From the NCBI GenBank assembly GCA_048270185.1, contig JBLWTJ010000002.1, positions 128,001 to 192,000 on the forward strand: DNA of 64,000 nt, written 5' to 3'. The stretch's first letter is position 1. Each line of letters begins with the position of its first letter. Position numbers: made by a program. Of this stretch, positions 30,001-33,000 are shown one piece after another. Origin of the DNA: Bacteriovoracaceae bacterium. Lineage in GTDB: Bacteria; Bdellovibrionota; Bacteriovoracia; Bacteriovoracales; Bacteriovoracaceae.

Positions 30001-33000
30001 TCGATTTTTGCCTTTTCAGCTAGATCGTTTAACTCTTGAATTTTCATTTCTCTTAAATCACTTAAATGCATAGAAAGTCTTACTCCTGAAATTGTATCCG
30101 AATATATAGAATTGAATTTGGTTAGAATTGCCTCTAGTTGTGGCCCATTTAAGACATGGGTTGATTAGATTAAATTTGATATTTGATTTAATTAGGTGTT
30201 TTCATCATAAACCCTCACCTCTTGCTAGTCAAGCTGACTTTAGCCGTTGACTTGGGGCGCAAAACATAGCATAACTACTTAATATGAATGAGTTTTCAAA
30301 CTATCCCAAATTTAATGAACTTAAAGGACTAAATATCCTCTCTCTCGATTATGGCGAAAAAGTCATTGGTATGGGATTCTTTTGTCCTGGGCGTGAACCT
30401 TTTCCAATCGGTGCCGGGCGAATCATTAATAAGGGATTGGCCAATTTCTATAAAGAGCTTTCGGCCAAGATTGAAGACGAAGTCATTGAAGTTATCGTAA
30501 TGGGTATTCCTTACTATGTTGATGGGAATGAGAGTGATAAAACAAAAGAGCACAAGGCCCTCTTTAATGCATTAGTTGAGAGATTTCCTAGTGTAAAATT
30601 CTATCAACAAGATGAGACCTTAACGACTAAGTCTGCAAAAGAGAGAATGCTTAATTCTCCAGAATATAATTTCACTTATGATCCAACAAAAATTGACGAG
30701 CTTAGTGCTGTAATTATCCTCGAAGATTTTATAAGAAGTTAATTTCACAAAATATAAAAATACGATATTCTATTGTCATGACAAAGAAACATTTATTTAT
30801 ATTTTTGGTGCTTGCACCTGCACTTTCAATTTGCCTTCTAGTGGCACACACTTATTACAATATTTATCACTGGCAATACTCTGGCCCTGAAACCGAATTC
30901 CAAATCAATTCAGGTGATACTTTCGGTACAATTAACTACCGTCTTGCTCAAGATAAAATTATCTACTCTCCTCGACTATTTCACCGTTATGTGAAGTTTG
31001 AAGGGAAACTAACAAGCTTTAAGGCCGGACGCTATATTATCCCAACAGGGATTACAATGAGTGATCTTCTCCAACTCCTTATTAGTGGAAAGAGTTTAAC
31101 TGTTCGAGTGACGATACCTGAGGGCTATAACCTCTTTCAGATAGCAAAGGTCTTGGCCGATGAGAAGATTGTTTCAGAAGAAGAATTTATAAAAGCTGCT
31201 AAAAATAAGAAGTTTGTACACTCGCTTGGAATTCCAGCTGCTCGTATTGAGGGATATCTTTATCCTGATACATATCAATTCCATGAGAAGATGAAAGCGC
31301 GTGCCATCATTAGACGTATGGTTCAAACTTTTAATGATAAGACAAAGGATCTTGATTTCTCAAAAATTAAGTTAACTAAGCATCAGCTAGTAACGCTAGC
31401 TTCGATGGTAGAAAAAGAAACTGGTGCAAAGTTTGAAAGACCGACAATTTCTGGAGTTTTTCACAACCGCCTAAAAAAGAGAATGAGACTTCAATCAGAT
31501 CCAACCACAATTTATGGGATCTGGGAAAATTACAAAGGTAATATTAGTAAGAAGCACTTAAGACAGAAAACGCCTTATAATACTTATAAGATTTCTGGCC
31601 TTCCTGTTGGACCTATTGCAAATCCAGGCTTAGCGGCACTAAAAGCGGCCCTTAATCCAAAGAAGCACGAGTATATTTACTTTGTTTCAAAAAATGATGG
31701 AACTCACGTTTTCTCTAAGACTTACAAAGAACACCAAAAGGCCGTGGATTTTTGGCAAAAGAACCGAGCTAATCGAGCAGGACGTTCTTGGCGTGACCTT
31801 AATAAGAATCAATAGAGGTTTGAGTAATGAAGTTATGGTCCTCTTTTGAGCAAGATTATATTTTAAAGAAATTAACCGACCTTTATGAGGAAGGTGCTGT
31901 TTTTAAATTCTGGCAAAATAACGAAGATATGCGAGAAGAATATACAGCGACTTTTAGTTCTGTAACGAGTGAGAAGTGCTCAATCAAGCTAACAAGAGAA
32001 AGTGCTTCTTTGTATACACGAATTGCACCCCTCTCTCCTATTTTCTTCCACTATCCTGCTGGAGATATGATCTTTAAAAAGGATGTTTTCAAATTAGAAA
32101 ATGGTGGCCTAAGTTTTAAGACACCTTCTGAAATTCGCTTACGTGACAAAAGAAGTGTTGAGAGGTTTACTTACAAGTATCCTGACTTCAAAAATATTTC
32201 CTACACAGTTGGAGATGAAACTGAAACTCAACACGATATTATTATAGATATCTCTCTTCGTGGCCTGGCATTTGTTATTGATGCTAAAAGAAAGGCCAAG
32301 TACGAACTCGGTAGTAAAATATTAATTTCTTCAATTACTGACCAAGAACTACCACAAAAACATGAAGCAAAAGTAGCATCAGTTAACCGCTATCGACTTT
32401 CAGGTGAAGGTTTACAAAATCACCTACTAAGAATTGGTGTTGAGTTTACACAGACTCTAGAATCAATTACCTATGACTCTATTGGATCTCTTGTAAAGAA
32501 GCGCCAAAATAAATTAAAAGGCCTTGATACATCAATGTTTAATGGACTTAATCCTGATGATTATCAAAAGCAACTTGCTAAAATTCACGAAAAGAACCCA
32601 CAGCTTGCCGTAAATATTTCAGAAGCTGTCGAGGATATCGATCGTCTGCGCTACATGACTACTGATATGAAAAGAGATTTCTTTCTAAACTTCAGTGTCG
32701 ATCTTATGGCCTGTGCTCTTAGAATGTCTTCAAAGGAATTAATCAACGATCTTCTTTCTGAAGTAACAGATGGTGTTCGTGAAGAGTTCTTAGAAAAGTA
32801 TGATGTCCCTAAACCAGCATCGGCCATCAATAAGGCACAAGATGAACTTAGAAAATTTATCAAAGAAAAAGAACGTGATGGATCTTTTGTCCTAAGTCCT
32901 AAATCATTTGTGAAGTATGTTTAGCCTACTCTCCCTTCTTGATGATATTGCCTCCACTCTTGATGATATCGCAGTGATGTCCAAAGTTGCCATCAAGAAA

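What a model noticed while it worked through the whole genome (the two positions that open the first line are those of the whole stretch)
31827..32924. c-di-GMP PilZ receptor fused to a FliG torque-domain copy
Gene g01826 (365 aa) joins a YcgR-like two-barrel c-di-GMP receptor (PilZN-like plus PilZ with intact binding motifs) to a C-terminal copy of FliG_C, the rotor domain that touches the MotA stator; two stand-alone FliG_C-only proteins also exist (g00605, g03013). I propose that it is a c-di-GMP-operated rotor mimic that captures stator units, a brake or clutch principle different from YcgR and MotI. It would link c-di-GMP to the swim-attack-invade switch of marine predators.
Evidence so far: Pfam PilZ 123-222 and FliG_C 252-356 covering 107 of 108 model positions. 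64 homologues of 342-378 aa, 36-100% identity, Halobacteriovorax/Bacteriovorax-labelled or unnamed, annotated 'FliG C-terminal domain-containing' or hypothetical. In an alignment of 29 of them R109, R113 (RxxxR) and D141, S143, G146 (DxSxxG) are invariant. AlphaFold2 on that alignment: pLDDT 81.7; two beta-barrels (3-106, 123-207) then a helical bundle (243-351). Foldseek vs PDB: best hits PP4397 (3kyf, E 6e-11), MrkH, YcgR (5y6f, E 5e-9), VCA0042, MotI (5vx6, E 3e-7), covering the first ~230 residues. Two full-text searches (PilZ+FliG+Bdellovibrio; PilZ+'FliG C-terminal domain') gave 5 papers, none on such a fusion by [...]
(Added by a program. Inside this text positions count along the whole contig: contig position 128,001 is position 1 of the stretch shown here. 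"Call 12" and the like, gene names such as g00115 and contig names such as C1 are that model's own, and its searches are not shown. The text may have been shortened before it was handed on; [...] marks where a part breaks off. The agent that wrote the report below was given it as the finding of a first reader that could run no searches.)

Follow-up and report, generated by a model that had tools for sequence, protein, structure and literature searches.

The report
c-di-GMP sensor fused to FliG-like domain
A marine predatory bacterium carries a conserved protein that joins a sensor for the signal molecule c-di-GMP to a relative of the flagellar rotor's torque domain; it probably tunes swimming in a new way, but its target is not yet known.

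Summary

The C domain is not a copy of the rotor's FliG. On a tree it groups with small (about 140 aa) free-standing FliG_C paralogues. FliG's MFXF hinge is gone. Of FliG's five stator-contact charges only one is kept; the D289 position is lysine in 37 of 47.

Full-length fusions occurred in 23 of 61 sampled genomes of the order and in no other family of a 251-genome phylum sample. The 3 genomes lacking FliG and FliM lack the fusion and the small paralogues too. Gene neighbours and a sigma-28 motif scan give no flagellar link. No binding test could be run.

Best reading (about 0.35): a c-di-GMP-switched pairing between the receptor and its tethered FliG_C paralogue, acting on the flagellar motor. 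Stator capture remains possible (about 0.15). It is a new variant of the YcgR-type effector, and my searches found no paper describing it.

The parts
31827..32924 (+). Whole gene: 365-aa YcgR-like receptor fused to a FliG_C paralogue (stop codon included)
   Evidence: ORF and translation; Pfam PilZ plus FliG_C; 64 full-length homologues
31827..32150 (+). Residues 1-108: N-terminal beta-barrel of YcgR-N (PilZN) type
32151..32165 (+). Residues 109-113: RxxxR c-di-GMP motif in the flexible inter-barrel linker
   Evidence: R109 and R113 invariant in 47 of 47 sequences; pLDDT < 50 over 110-120
32178..32192 (+). Residues 118-122: Y-[QP]-D-x-K patch, invariant in the fusions but variable in stand-alone two-barrel relatives
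   Evidence: Y118, D120 and K122 present in 47 of 47 fusions. Among 20 stand-alone relatives: Y in 3, D in 7, K in 9
32193..32492 (+). Residues 123-222: PilZ beta-barrel
32247..32264 (+). Residues 141-146: DxSxxG c-di-GMP motif
   Evidence: D141, S143 and G146 invariant in 47 of 47 sequences
32520..32630 (+). Residues 232-268: remnant of FliG's ARM_C segment, including the near-invariant NPxLA helix start
   Evidence: The family profile aligns to FliG 3hjl, 1lkv and 3ajc through this stretch. G232 and G240 are invariant; N257, L260 and A261 are >= 90% conserved
32628..32639 (+). Residues 268-271: position of FliG's MFXF hinge, which is not kept (V-E-D-I here)
   Evidence: Column counts: FliG M-F-x-F in 9 of 9; in the fusions the second position is E in 44 and D in 3 of 47. 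The model shows one continuous helix over 258-276
32631..32900 (+). Residues 269-358: six-helix bundle with the fold of FliG C-alpha1-6
32757..32801 (+). Residues 311-325: equivalent of FliG's torque helix, with a different conserved charge pattern (T-D-x-[VMI]-[RK]-[END]-E-F-L-x-K)
   Evidence: Mapping of FliG positions onto P0001: G316, E323, K324. V313, T314, E320 and F321 are >= 90% conserved and L322 is invariant

Best explanation
The gene encodes a cytoplasmic c-di-GMP effector found, in the samples searched, in one family of marine and freshwater predatory bacteria (Bacteriovoracaceae in the wide sense).

Its first 230 residues are a YcgR-type receptor: a YcgR-N-like barrel, the RxxxR switch linker and a PilZ barrel. 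[quoted passage not shown] That domain descends from small free-standing FliG_C proteins, not from the rotor's own FliG. It keeps the six-helix fold but has lost the MFXF hinge and four of the five stator-contact charges.

Proposed mechanism. The fusion records a partnership between YcgR-like receptors and FliG_C-type domains, as E. coli YcgR contacts FliG. c-di-GMP clamps the two barrels, as it does in YcgR, PP4397 and MotI. This changes how the tethered FliG_C-like domain is held against fusion-specific conserved patches next to the ligand site. The ligand-bound form then acts at the rotor-stator interface of the flagellar motor, most probably by exchanging its own FliG_C-like domain for the real FliG_C or MotA. 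That would make it a self-inhibited brake with a built-in pseudo-target.

Shown here: the gene, its domains, motifs, folds, family tree and distribution. Inferred: ligand binding, intramolecular pairing, the motor as target and the sign of the effect. My odds: binds c-di-GMP about 0.8; acts on the flagellar motor about 0.55-0.6; the specific cis-pairing mechanism about 0.35.
For: Receptor half.
- Pfam PilZ scores above its cut-off.
- RxxxR and DxSxxG are invariant in 47 of 47 sequences.
- The genome holds 3 GGDEF and 10 PilZ matches, so c-di-GMP signalling is present.

C-terminal half.
- Pfam FliG_C scores above its cut-off.
- The family profile hits FliG chains in the PDB, best 3hjl at 7.7e-9.
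- Fold match of rmsd 1.7-2.0 A to FliG C-alpha1-6.

Origin of the C domain.
- phmmer against 1.84 billion representatives found full-length fusions, two-barrel proteins of about 220 aa and FliG_C-only proteins of about 140 aa. None of the 138 hits was a match of the C part in a protein of FliG's length.
- On the tree, FliG splits off (SH-aLRT 96) and the fusion C domains group with the small S3 type (86).

Rosetta-stone logic.
- The abstract of PMC10140304 says YcgR binds both MotA and FliG, that c-di-GMP enhances this, and that D54 of YcgR-N is needed for FliG binding.
- The abstract and Introduction of PMC12713396 say MotA delivers YcgR to FliG.
- One small protein (G013, 136 aa) sits inside the fusion clade (99). 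That genome's best two-barrel match lies on another contig, which suggests the two halves can work apart.

Fusion-specific invariant residues in the receptor half.
- W4, H75, Y118, D120, K122, D172, Q173 and S218 are conserved in the fusions and variable in 20 stand-alone relatives. This fits an interface acquired with the C domain.

Link to flagella.
- 58 of 61 sampled genomes of the order have FliG_C matches, each with at least 2.
- The 3 without FliG_C (two genomes of one genus at 98-99% completeness, and one 0.9-Mb genome) also lack FliM and lack any match to the fusion profile at E <= 1e-10.
Against: - No binding or complex test was run, because the predictor was unavailable.
- AlphaFold2 gives no fixed packing between the halves: pTM 0.43, and linker 215-227 has pLDDT < 50. 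The model was made without ligand.
- No flagellar gene context. The rho / ruvX / mltG neighbourhood is shared by only 8 of 45 related loci. The other loci sit among housekeeping genes. None of the 28 proteins scanned, representing 27 recurrent neighbour clusters plus the tandem PilZ paralogue, belongs to a flagellar family.
- A sigma-28-like motif lies upstream in 0 cases in the window and in 1 of 44 loci. Background is 24 of 1444 windows.
- The closest stand-alone two-barrel relatives have 0 flagellar families among 54 neighbours scanned.
- YcgR-type folds also include non-motor proteins among the top hits: the MrkH transcription factor and the PlzA nucleic-acid binder.
- The phyletic argument rests on at most two independent losses.
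- Four genomes with FliG have no match to the fusion profile at all, and 35 of 58 flagellated genomes lack the full-length fusion. It is therefore dispensable for flagellar function.
Confidence: 0.35

Rival explanations
1. Stator trap. The FliG_C-like domain imitates the rotor and binds MotA. When c-di-GMP is high, stator units are captured or capped and torque is lost. A refined form: the PilZ barrel anchors on MotA, as in YcgR, MotI and FlgX. The tethered, torque-dead FliG_C-like domain then occupies MotA's FliG site without activating the stator.
For: - The K264 equivalent is R in 47 of 47 sequences, and the helix equivalent to the torque helix is conserved and strongly charged.
- PilZ-MotA contacts are described for YcgR (PMC10140304, abstract) and for FlgX (PMC11725899, search listing and abstract only).
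- The genome's MotA keeps invariant charged clusters, R88 R89 E90 and E96 K97, in 24 of 24 aligned orthologues.
Against: - The three FliG residues most important for MotA contact are not kept. (That ranking of R281, D288 and D289 is recalled from Lloyd and Blair 1997 and Zhou et al. 1998, which I did not read here.)
- The R281 equivalent is basic in 2 of 47. The D289 equivalent is K in 37 of 47. The R297 equivalent is never basic. FliG has all five in 9 of 9.
- The free small paralogues lack these residues too, so the lineage did not evolve as a faithful rotor copy.
- No binding test was run.
Confidence: 0.15
2. Rotor docking. The FliG_C-like domain inserts into or caps the switch complex. It would do so by taking the place of a FliG ARM_C / C domain on FliG's middle domain or on FliM. 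This carries the c-di-GMP sensor to the C-ring, where ligand binding biases rotation, slows it, or affects ring assembly and disassembly.
For: - The stretch most similar between FliG and all paralogue types is the ARM_C helix start: FliG DPELAEEIR, fusion NPQLAVNIS, S3 DPQTAELLR, S2 NPTLAKELY. N257, L260 and A261 are >= 90% conserved.
- The family profile aligns to FliG from the M-C linker onward.
- In FliG this segment stacks on the neighbour's middle domain and lies near FliM. That role is recalled from Brown 2007, Minamino 2011 and Baker 2016, which I did not read here.
Against: - The first ARM_C helix is not predicted helical: 232-242 is coil with invariant G232 and G240.
- The [DN]P start may be conserved only as a helix cap.
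- A complete C-ring has no free FliG middle domains.
- No test was run.
Confidence: 0.15
3. Not a flagellar protein. The FliG_C / MgtE_N-type helical bundle is used here as a general protein-binding module. The c-di-GMP signal would go to another process, such as envelope remodelling, gliding or prey entry.
For: - In the window the gene sits in an apparent operon with ruvX, mltG (11-nt gap) and a DUF808 membrane protein (8-nt overlap).
- No locus shows flagellar neighbours.
- No sigma-28-like motif was found.
- The S3 small paralogue is directly downstream of an hldD-like sugar epimerase in 18 of 21 loci. The S2 type follows a coiled-coil protein in 11 of 13 loci.
- The small paralogues give weak sub-threshold MgtE_N matches.
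- YcgR-type folds include DNA-binding MrkH.
Against: - The extra FliG_C proteins and the fusion were absent from all 3 genomes of the order that lack FliG and FliM. They were present in 58 of 58 genomes that have FliG.
- In the phylum sample, genomes with several FliG_C matches mostly also had a strong FliG-grade match. Six genomes at 91-96% completeness had only weak matches, and 2 of those had two matches each.
- The context with mltG is not conserved beyond 8 of 45 loci.
Confidence: 0.25

Closest known systems
YcgR (E. coli / Salmonella flagellar brake; PDB 5y6f, 5y6h, 5y6g)
   Different: The fusion has an extra 135-aa FliG_C-type domain at the C terminus. Pfam finds no PilZN match at sequence level. 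Sequence identity to YcgR in the structural alignments is 11-13%. No sigma-28-type promoter or flagellar neighbourhood was found, whereas ycgR is described as a late flagellar-regulon gene (PMC12713396 Introduction).
MotI/DgrA (B. subtilis), FlgZ/PP4397 (Pseudomonas), PlzD/VCA0042 (Vibrio): YcgR-like stator- or motor-directed PilZ proteins
   Different: All of these are proteins of about 210-250 aa with no FliG-type domain. Their partners (MotA, MotC) are given in the passages I read of bioRxiv 10.1101/2020.02.11.943704.
FliG, the rotor / switch protein (PDB 1lkv, 4fhr, 3hjl, 8umd, 8ucs)
   Same: The C-terminal six-helix bundle superposes at rmsd 1.7-2.0 A. Pfam FliG_C scores above its cut-off. 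The ARM_C helix start and the K264-equivalent basic residue are kept.
   Different: The fusion has no FliG N or middle domains. The MFXF hinge is lost. Four of five stator-contact charges are not kept. NCBIfam's FliG equivalog gives no hit. On the tree it falls outside FliG.
Small free-standing FliG_C-only proteins (about 140 aa; types S3 and S2 of this report)
   Same: They are the closest relatives of the C domain. They share Y-[LI]-T-x-x-M after the former hinge and [IVM]-[RK]-E-[ED] in the torque-helix equivalent.
   Different: They have no receptor half. I found no published function for them. A Leptospira 'FliG C-terminal domain-containing' paralogue appears only in an expression table (PMC13066512, passages).
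FlgX, tetrameric PilZ protein of Campylobacter jejuni
   Same: It is a PilZ-family protein acting on the stator's cytoplasmic face (PMC11725899, search listing and abstract; PMC12943098, passage).
   Different: FlgX lacks the c-di-GMP motifs, forms a tetramer, stabilises the stator rather than inhibiting it, and has no FliG-type domain.

Membership tests
PilZ domain (PF07238), canonical c-di-GMP-binding type | Profile match above Pfam's gathering score | tested here: met
   29.0 bits against a cut-off of 22.5, residues 123-222
PilZ domain (PF07238), canonical c-di-GMP-binding type | RxxxR motif before the barrel and (D/N)xSxxG motif in it | tested here: met
   R109, R113, D141, S143 and G146 are invariant in 47 of 47 sequences. 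The motif definitions are as used in the PilZ papers I read in passages
PilZ domain (PF07238), canonical c-di-GMP-binding type | Six-stranded beta-barrel fold | tested here: met
PilZ domain (PF07238), canonical c-di-GMP-binding type | Actual binding of c-di-GMP | not testable with these tools
   Needs ITC, DRaCALA or a similar assay on purified protein
YcgR-type (PilZN-PilZ) motility effectors | N-terminal YcgR-N / PilZN barrel before the PilZ domain | tested here: met
YcgR-type (PilZN-PilZ) motility effectors | Binds MotA and/or FliG and slows or biases the motor | not testable with these tools
   The complex predictor was unavailable.
YcgR-type (PilZN-PilZ) motility effectors | Membership of the flagellar regulon or a flagellar gene cluster (true of E. 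coli ycgR, not of all relatives) | tested here: not met
   No flagellar neighbours in 45 loci. A sigma-28-like motif lies upstream in 1 of 44 loci and not in the window. The motif test is weak: it matched only 2 of the genome's 7 flagellin upstream regions
FliG_C domain (PF01706) | Profile match above Pfam's gathering score | tested here: met
   35.4 bits against a cut-off of 23.3, model positions 2-108 of 108
FliG_C domain (PF01706) | Six-helix C-alpha1-6 fold | tested here: met
FliG proper (rotor / switch protein, TIGR00207) | N, middle and C domains in one protein of about 330-350 aa | tested here: not met
   There are no FliG_N or FliG_M matches. NCBIfam fliG gives no hit at E <= 0.01. The genome's real FliG lies elsewhere
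FliG proper (rotor / switch protein, TIGR00207) | Charged torque-helix residues that meet MotA (E. coli K264, R281, D288, D289, R297; numbering recalled) | tested here: not met
   Fusion, 47 sequences: R 47; basic 2; acidic 30; K 37 with E 5; basic 0. FliG has all five in 9 of 9
FliG proper (rotor / switch protein, TIGR00207) | MFXF hinge between ARM_C and C-alpha1-6 | tested here: not met
   FliG has M-F-x-F in 9 of 9. The fusion has [IV..]-[ED]-x-[LI], with F2 replaced by E in 44 and D in 3 of 47. The model shows one continuous helix over 258-276

The most novel reading that the evidence does not exclude
Free and fused FliG_C paralogues form an unrecognised class of soluble rotor-domain proteins that work together with PilZ receptors. 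The small proteins would set the threshold of YcgR-like brakes as decoys or adaptors. The fusion would be a self-contained c-di-GMP clutch: its PilZ half anchors on the stator and its torque-dead FliG_C half occupies the stator's rotor-binding site. That principle differs from YcgR, MotI, EpsE and FlgX. It would let these very fast-swimming predators uncouple the motor at prey contact.
Probability: 0.15. Interest if true: 0.8.

Novelty: new variant of a known kind. Interest (0 to 1): 0.6.

Why it matters
How c-di-GMP stops flagella is still argued even for E. coli YcgR, with the rotor, the stator or both proposed as targets (PMC12713396; PMC10140304). A natural fusion of a YcgR-type receptor with a FliG_C-type domain is independent genomic evidence that the two kinds of domain work together. 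It also offers a compact single-chain system in which the contact could be solved structurally, with and without ligand.

The work also shows that every sampled flagellated member of this predatory order carries at least one extra FliG_C match beside FliG itself. These fall into two conserved types of free FliG_C paralogue, whose function is unknown. If they act on the motor, they are a new layer of motor control.

For predatory bacteria the protein is a candidate link between c-di-GMP, which is known to govern predation stages in Bdellovibrio (PMC3271064, listing and abstract only), and the arrest of swimming at prey contact.

Tried and rejected
- Complex prediction. I sent MotA x2, the full-length fusion and two c-di-GMP.
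- RNA evidence. The look-up of sequencing runs listed 13 runs and no RNA holder. I did not lay reads. This says nothing about expression.
- Sigma-28 promoter scan. The pattern was TAAA-N14-17-NCGA[TA]A[AT]. The consensus is recalled and was checked against 2 of the genome's 7 flagellin upstream regions. It matched 0 times in the window and in 1 of 44 loci, against a background of 24 of 1444 windows. I read this as no support, not as proof of absence.
- Sigma-70 and terminator scan of 30000-34000. There were 15 promoter-like sites against 12.6 expected, and no terminator between mltG and the gene.
- Gene-context clustering for the fusion, for the two small paralogue types and for stand-alone two-barrel relatives. 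No flagellar link emerged from any of them.
- Other architectures carrying this C domain. A region search with residues 228-365 found 35 proteins, all the same fusion family. That search is word-limited, so other fusions may exist.
- Search with the 142-aa small protein. It returned 20 close relatives only.
- ESM Atlas on the C domain. The best score was 0.86, below the tool's 0.9 level. It lists FliG_C-only clusters in several phyla, which I treat as a lead only.
- NCBIfam gave no family for the fusion.
- Earlier findings of this scan: nothing was shown.
- MotA phyletic pattern. One genus with FliG but without this MotA type lacks the fusion. Another genus has this MotA and also lacks the fusion. 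There is no usable correlation.
- Literature. Five searches and term look-ups in six papers found no description of a PilZ-FliG_C fusion or of the small FliG_C proteins. Subscription-only papers and supplements were not seen.
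Full report
**1.

Window 31827-32924 (+) is an open frame of 365 codons. A GAGG lies 9-10 nt before the ATG and overlaps the stop codon of the upstream mltG-like gene. The downstream DUF808 gene overlaps the frame by 8 nt.

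- Pfam finds PilZ at 123-222 (29.0 bits, cut-off 22.5).
- Pfam finds FliG_C at 252-356, covering positions 2-108 of the 108-position model (35.4 bits, cut-off 23.3).
- A search of 5.8 billion protein clusters returned 64 full-length relatives of 342-378 aa at 36-100% identity. Those that carry a name are Halobacteriovorax, Bacteriovorax or Bacteriovoracaceae.
- I aligned 47 of the 64. The 17 left out were near neighbours or shorter forms and were not picked by motif. R109, R113, D141, S143 and G146 are invariant in the 47.
- The genome holds four FliG_C matches: FliG proper (343 aa), two stand-alone proteins (143 and 142 aa) and this gene.

The only numerical difference is mean pLDDT, 81.2 here against 81.7, from a different alignment.

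**2. Anatomy**

AlphaFold2 on the 47-row alignment gives two beta-barrels (3-106 and 123-207), a poorly defined linker helix (219-231, pLDDT about 43) and a seven-helix C-terminal part (243-350). pTM is only 0.43, so the relative position of the halves is not defined.

Foldseek's best hits cover the first 230 residues or so: PP4397 3kyf 6.7e-11, MrkH, YcgR 5y6f 1.4e-8, VCA0042 and MotI 3.5e-7. FliG 1lkv appears at 7.1e-3.

|---|---|---|---|---|
| 1-108 | E. coli YcgR-N, 5y6h | 13.9 | 2.3 A | 103 |
| 107-230 | YcgR PilZ domain, 5y6g | 7.6 | 3.5 A | 119 |
| 108-225 | Alg44 PilZ domain, 4rt0 | 7.8 | 3.0 A | 97 |
| 270-358 | FliG C-alpha1-6, 4fhr_B | 11.0 | 1.7 A | 89 |
| 270-355 | FliG bound to MotAB, 8ucs_H | 9.6 | 2.0 A | 86 |

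The family profile also hits FliG chains by sequence, best 3hjl at 7.7e-9. That alignment starts in the linker before ARM_C.

The architecture is therefore: YcgR-N-type barrel, RxxxR linker, PilZ barrel, linker helix, ARM_C remnant, FliG-type six-helix bundle.

**3. The C domain is a FliG paralogue, not a copy of the rotor's torque domain**

phmmer against 1.84 billion representatives gave 138 hits of three kinds:

- full-length fusions, down to about 22% identity;
- proteins of about 220 aa matching residues 10-215;
- proteins of about 140 aa matching residues 235-360.

None of the 138 hits is a match of the C part in a protein of FliG's length. By BLASTP the C part matches one of the genome's small proteins (E 5e-6) about as well as its FliG (E 2e-5).

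I collected the small proteins and FliGs from genomes of the order and built a tree of 70 C domains. The rows were 26 of the 47 fusion sequences, 22 labelled S3, 13 labelled S2 and 9 FliG. One S3 label was a duplicate of an S2 row, and the tool flagged it. The method was quick IQ-TREE with SH-aLRT support only.

- FliG separates from all the others (96).
- The S2 type forms its own group (99).
- The fusion C domains group with the S3 type (86).

Column counts on a fresh alignment (47 fusions, 21 S3, 13 S2, 9 FliG) are as follows.

| FliG position (E. coli numbering, recalled) | FliG, 9 sequences | Fusion, 47 sequences |
|---|---|---|
| MFXF hinge | M-F-x-F in 9 | second F replaced by E in 44, D in 3 |
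| K264 | K in 9 | R in 47 |
| R281 | R in 9 | N 19, T 12, S 10, G 3, R 2, V 1 |
| D288 | E in 9 | E 20, D 10, Y 7, F 6, other 4 |
| D289 | D in 9 | K 37, E 5, L 3, Q 2 |
| R297 | K in 9 | P 31, S 10, A 6 |

The small paralogues lack the triad too. At the D289 position S3 has a hydrophobic residue (I, V, A or L) in 17 of 21. At the R281 position S2 has E in 9 of 13.

What the fusion shares with S3, and not with FliG, is Y-[LI]-T-x-x-M after the former hinge and [IVM]-[RK]-E-[ED] in the torque-helix equivalent (alignment printed).

The claim 'a copy of the rotor domain that touches MotA' therefore holds for the fold. It does not hold for descent or for the contact residues.

**4. Distribution**

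In 61 sampled genomes of the order, the full-length protein occurs in 23, spread over 11 of 32 genera. The other genomes have only the separate pieces.

In a 251-genome sample of the phylum at E <= 1e-25, full-length matches occur in 22 genomes, all in one family. The 199 genomes of other families gave a single hit, which covers the receptor half only, inside a 469-aa frame.

The search for related loci gave 45 loci. All carry Bacteriovoracales-type labels except one MAG labelled Flavobacteriaceae. Two come from groundwater-type MAGs labelled Bdellovibrio or Bdellovibrionales.

FliG_C matches occur in 58 of the 61 genomes, always at least 2 per genome. The 3 genomes without any match are two genomes of one genus (98-99% complete) and one 0.9-Mb genome. 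These three also lack FliM and lack any match to the fusion profile at E <= 1e-10.

In the phylum sample 227 of 251 genomes have FliG_C matches. Six fragmented genomes (91-96% complete) have only weak matches without a FliG-grade match.

The extra FliG_C proteins therefore travel with flagella. This rests on at most two independent losses.

**5. Context gives no help**

The rho / ruvX / mltG / fusion order is shared by 8 of 45 loci. DUF808 follows the gene in only 2. Elsewhere the gene sits among housekeeping genes in at least four other arrangements.

Two features recur:

- A single-domain response-regulator gene lies convergent and directly downstream in 8 loci. It is present somewhere in 12 of the 45.
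- In 3 loci a tandem 237-257-aa two-barrel paralogue without the FliG_C part follows the fusion.

None of the 28 proteins scanned from these loci, representing 27 recurrent neighbour clusters plus the tandem PilZ paralogue, belongs to a flagellar family.

A sigma-28-like motif is visible before 2 of the genome's 7 flagellin genes. It is found upstream of the fusion in 1 of 44 loci and not in the window. Background is 24 of 1444 windows.

The nearest stand-alone two-barrel relatives have 0 flagellar families among 54 neighbours scanned.

The S3 small gene is directly downstream of an hldD-like epimerase in 18 of 21 loci. The S2 small gene follows a 141-aa coiled-coil protein in 11 of 13 loci.

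No RNA run was listed.

**6. How it most likely works**

What is shown: a YcgR-type receptor with every sequence mark of c-di-GMP binding is tethered to a FliG_C paralogue, and both halves are strongly conserved.

From the literature:

- YcgR binds both MotA and FliG. c-di-GMP strengthens both contacts. D54 in YcgR-N is needed for FliG binding (PMC10140304, abstract).
- A current model has MotA delivering YcgR to FliG (PMC12713396, abstract and Introduction).

A gene fusion of a YcgR-like protein with a FliG_C-like domain is most simply read as a record of that kind of contact.

- The receptor half has residues invariant in the fusions but variable in 20 stand-alone relatives. They are W4, H75, Y118, D120, K122 (next to RxxxR), D172, Q173 and S218. 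The ligand motifs and the core (W29, Q30, F83, K84, P100, G204) are shared by both groups.
- One genome has a 136-aa protein that falls inside the fusion clade (99), with its best two-barrel match on another contig. This suggests the halves can also work in trans.

I therefore commit to a c-di-GMP-switched pairing of the receptor with its own FliG_C-like domain. The ligand-bound form would then act at the rotor-stator interface. I put this at about 0.35.

The weak points are these:

- no binding data;
- no defined packing in the ligand-free model (pTM 0.43);
- no regulatory or positional link to flagellar genes;
- non-motor proteins (MrkH, PlzA) among the fold relatives.

**7. Rivals**

The fold match to MotAB-bound FliG and a conserved charged helix speak for it. 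The loss of the R281 / D288 / D289 pattern speaks against a faithful mimic. A PilZ-anchored, torque-dead cap on MotA is still possible.
- Rotor docking through the ARM_C remnant, about 0.15. The [DN]PxLA helix start is the stretch best shared with FliG, but it may be only a helix cap.
- A non-flagellar role, about 0.25. Context supports it; the phyletic pattern opposes it.

The planned in-silico test was MotA x2 plus the fusion plus 2 c-di-GMP, and the MotA alignment A2 had been prepared.

**8. Comparison with what is known, and novelty**

The protein passes the tests for a canonical PilZ domain and for a YcgR-type two-barrel fold. It passes Pfam's FliG_C and the fold test. It fails the tests for FliG proper: domain set, NCBIfam equivalog, torque charges and hinge.

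I found no paper on a PilZ-FliG_C fusion or on the small FliG_C proteins.

- Five full-text searches were run.
- The PilZ similarity-network preprint mentions FliG only as YcgR's partner, in the 5 passages I read.
- The PilZ-related-domains preprint has zero occurrences of 'FliG'.
- Supplements and subscription journals were not seen. [quoted passage not shown]

I file it as a new variant of a known kind: a YcgR-type effector with a new, rotor-derived output domain.

**9. Verdict**

The finding is real, conserved and unusual, but the proposed mechanism is unproven and its central premise of rotor mimicry is weakened. Interest is 0.6. It would surprise specialists moderately. It also offers a single-chain handle on the disputed YcgR-FliG contact. 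The most novel reading is that FliG_C paralogues are a new class of soluble motor regulators and that the fusion is a stator-capping clutch. I give that about 0.15.

Noticed in passing
own genome C1:671162-671470 (L003 1471-1899, -) and 20 related loci L087-L106: One type of small FliG_C-only protein (about 142 aa, 'S3') lies directly downstream of an hldD-like NAD-dependent sugar epimerase in 18 of 21 loci. In the own genome the two genes overlap by 17 nt. A DksA-type zinc-finger gene is often nearby. No explanation links an LPS-heptose-type enzyme with a FliG_C protein.
   Followed up: partly
own genome C5:51481-51804 (L002 1498-1929, -) and loci L107-L118: The second small FliG_C-only type (about 143 aa, 'S2') follows a 141-aa lysine/glutamate-rich coiled-coil protein with no Pfam family in 11 of 13 loci. 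A small cNMP-binding protein is present in 10 of 13 loci. At the R281-equivalent position S2 has E in 9 of 13.
   Followed up: partly
genomes G016 and G032 (one genus of the same family) and G001: Two genomes at 98-99% completeness, from the same family as the window's organism, have no FliG_C, FliM or MotA-type match. This looks like a non-flagellated lineage among flagellated predators.
   Followed up: partly
own genome C4:52680-52907 (-): A PilZ match in a 225-aa frame lies within about 1 kb of two flagellin genes (C4:53739-54149 and C4:54993-55406). It is a more conventional candidate for a YcgR/MotI-type brake in this genome.
   Followed up: no
own genome C1:613061-613399 (L054 1132-1884 +, 1898-2761 +) and C1:616070-616360: A MotA/TolQ/ExbB-family protein (251 aa) is followed by a von Willebrand A-domain protein (288 aa). 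A 267-aa-frame PilZ match lies about 2.7 kb downstream. This pairing is unusual.
   Followed up: no
loci L036, L041, L045 (about 6180-6953, +); also G029 and G052: Directly after the fusion gene lies a tandem paralogue of 237-257 aa that has the two barrels (PilZ E 2.8e-8) but no FliG_C part. In G052 the match contains one TAA.
   Followed up: partly
loci L014, L028, L034, L035, L037, L039, L047, L048: A single-domain response-regulator (CheY-like receiver, about 122 aa) gene lies convergent and directly downstream of the fusion gene in 8 of 45 loci. A small histidine-kinase-like gene lies upstream in several of the same loci.
   Followed up: no
window 33844-37443 (+): A 1199-aa protein with a lipoprotein-like N terminus and no Pfam match at E <= 1. 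It is rich in G/S/T/N repeats. A partial relative (45% identity) occurs in the two closest loci only.
   Followed up: no
locus L014 (contig labelled Flavobacteriaceae MAG): A full-length fusion gene (39% identity) sits in the same synteny block as several Bacteriovoracaceae loci, on a 258-kb contig of a MAG labelled Flavobacteriaceae. This is probably a binning or labelling error rather than gene transfer.
   Followed up: no
genus g7 of the order (7 genomes): All 7 genomes have FliG but no match at E <= 1e-30 to this genome's MotA. They may use a different stator type. They also lack the full-length fusion.
   Followed up: no
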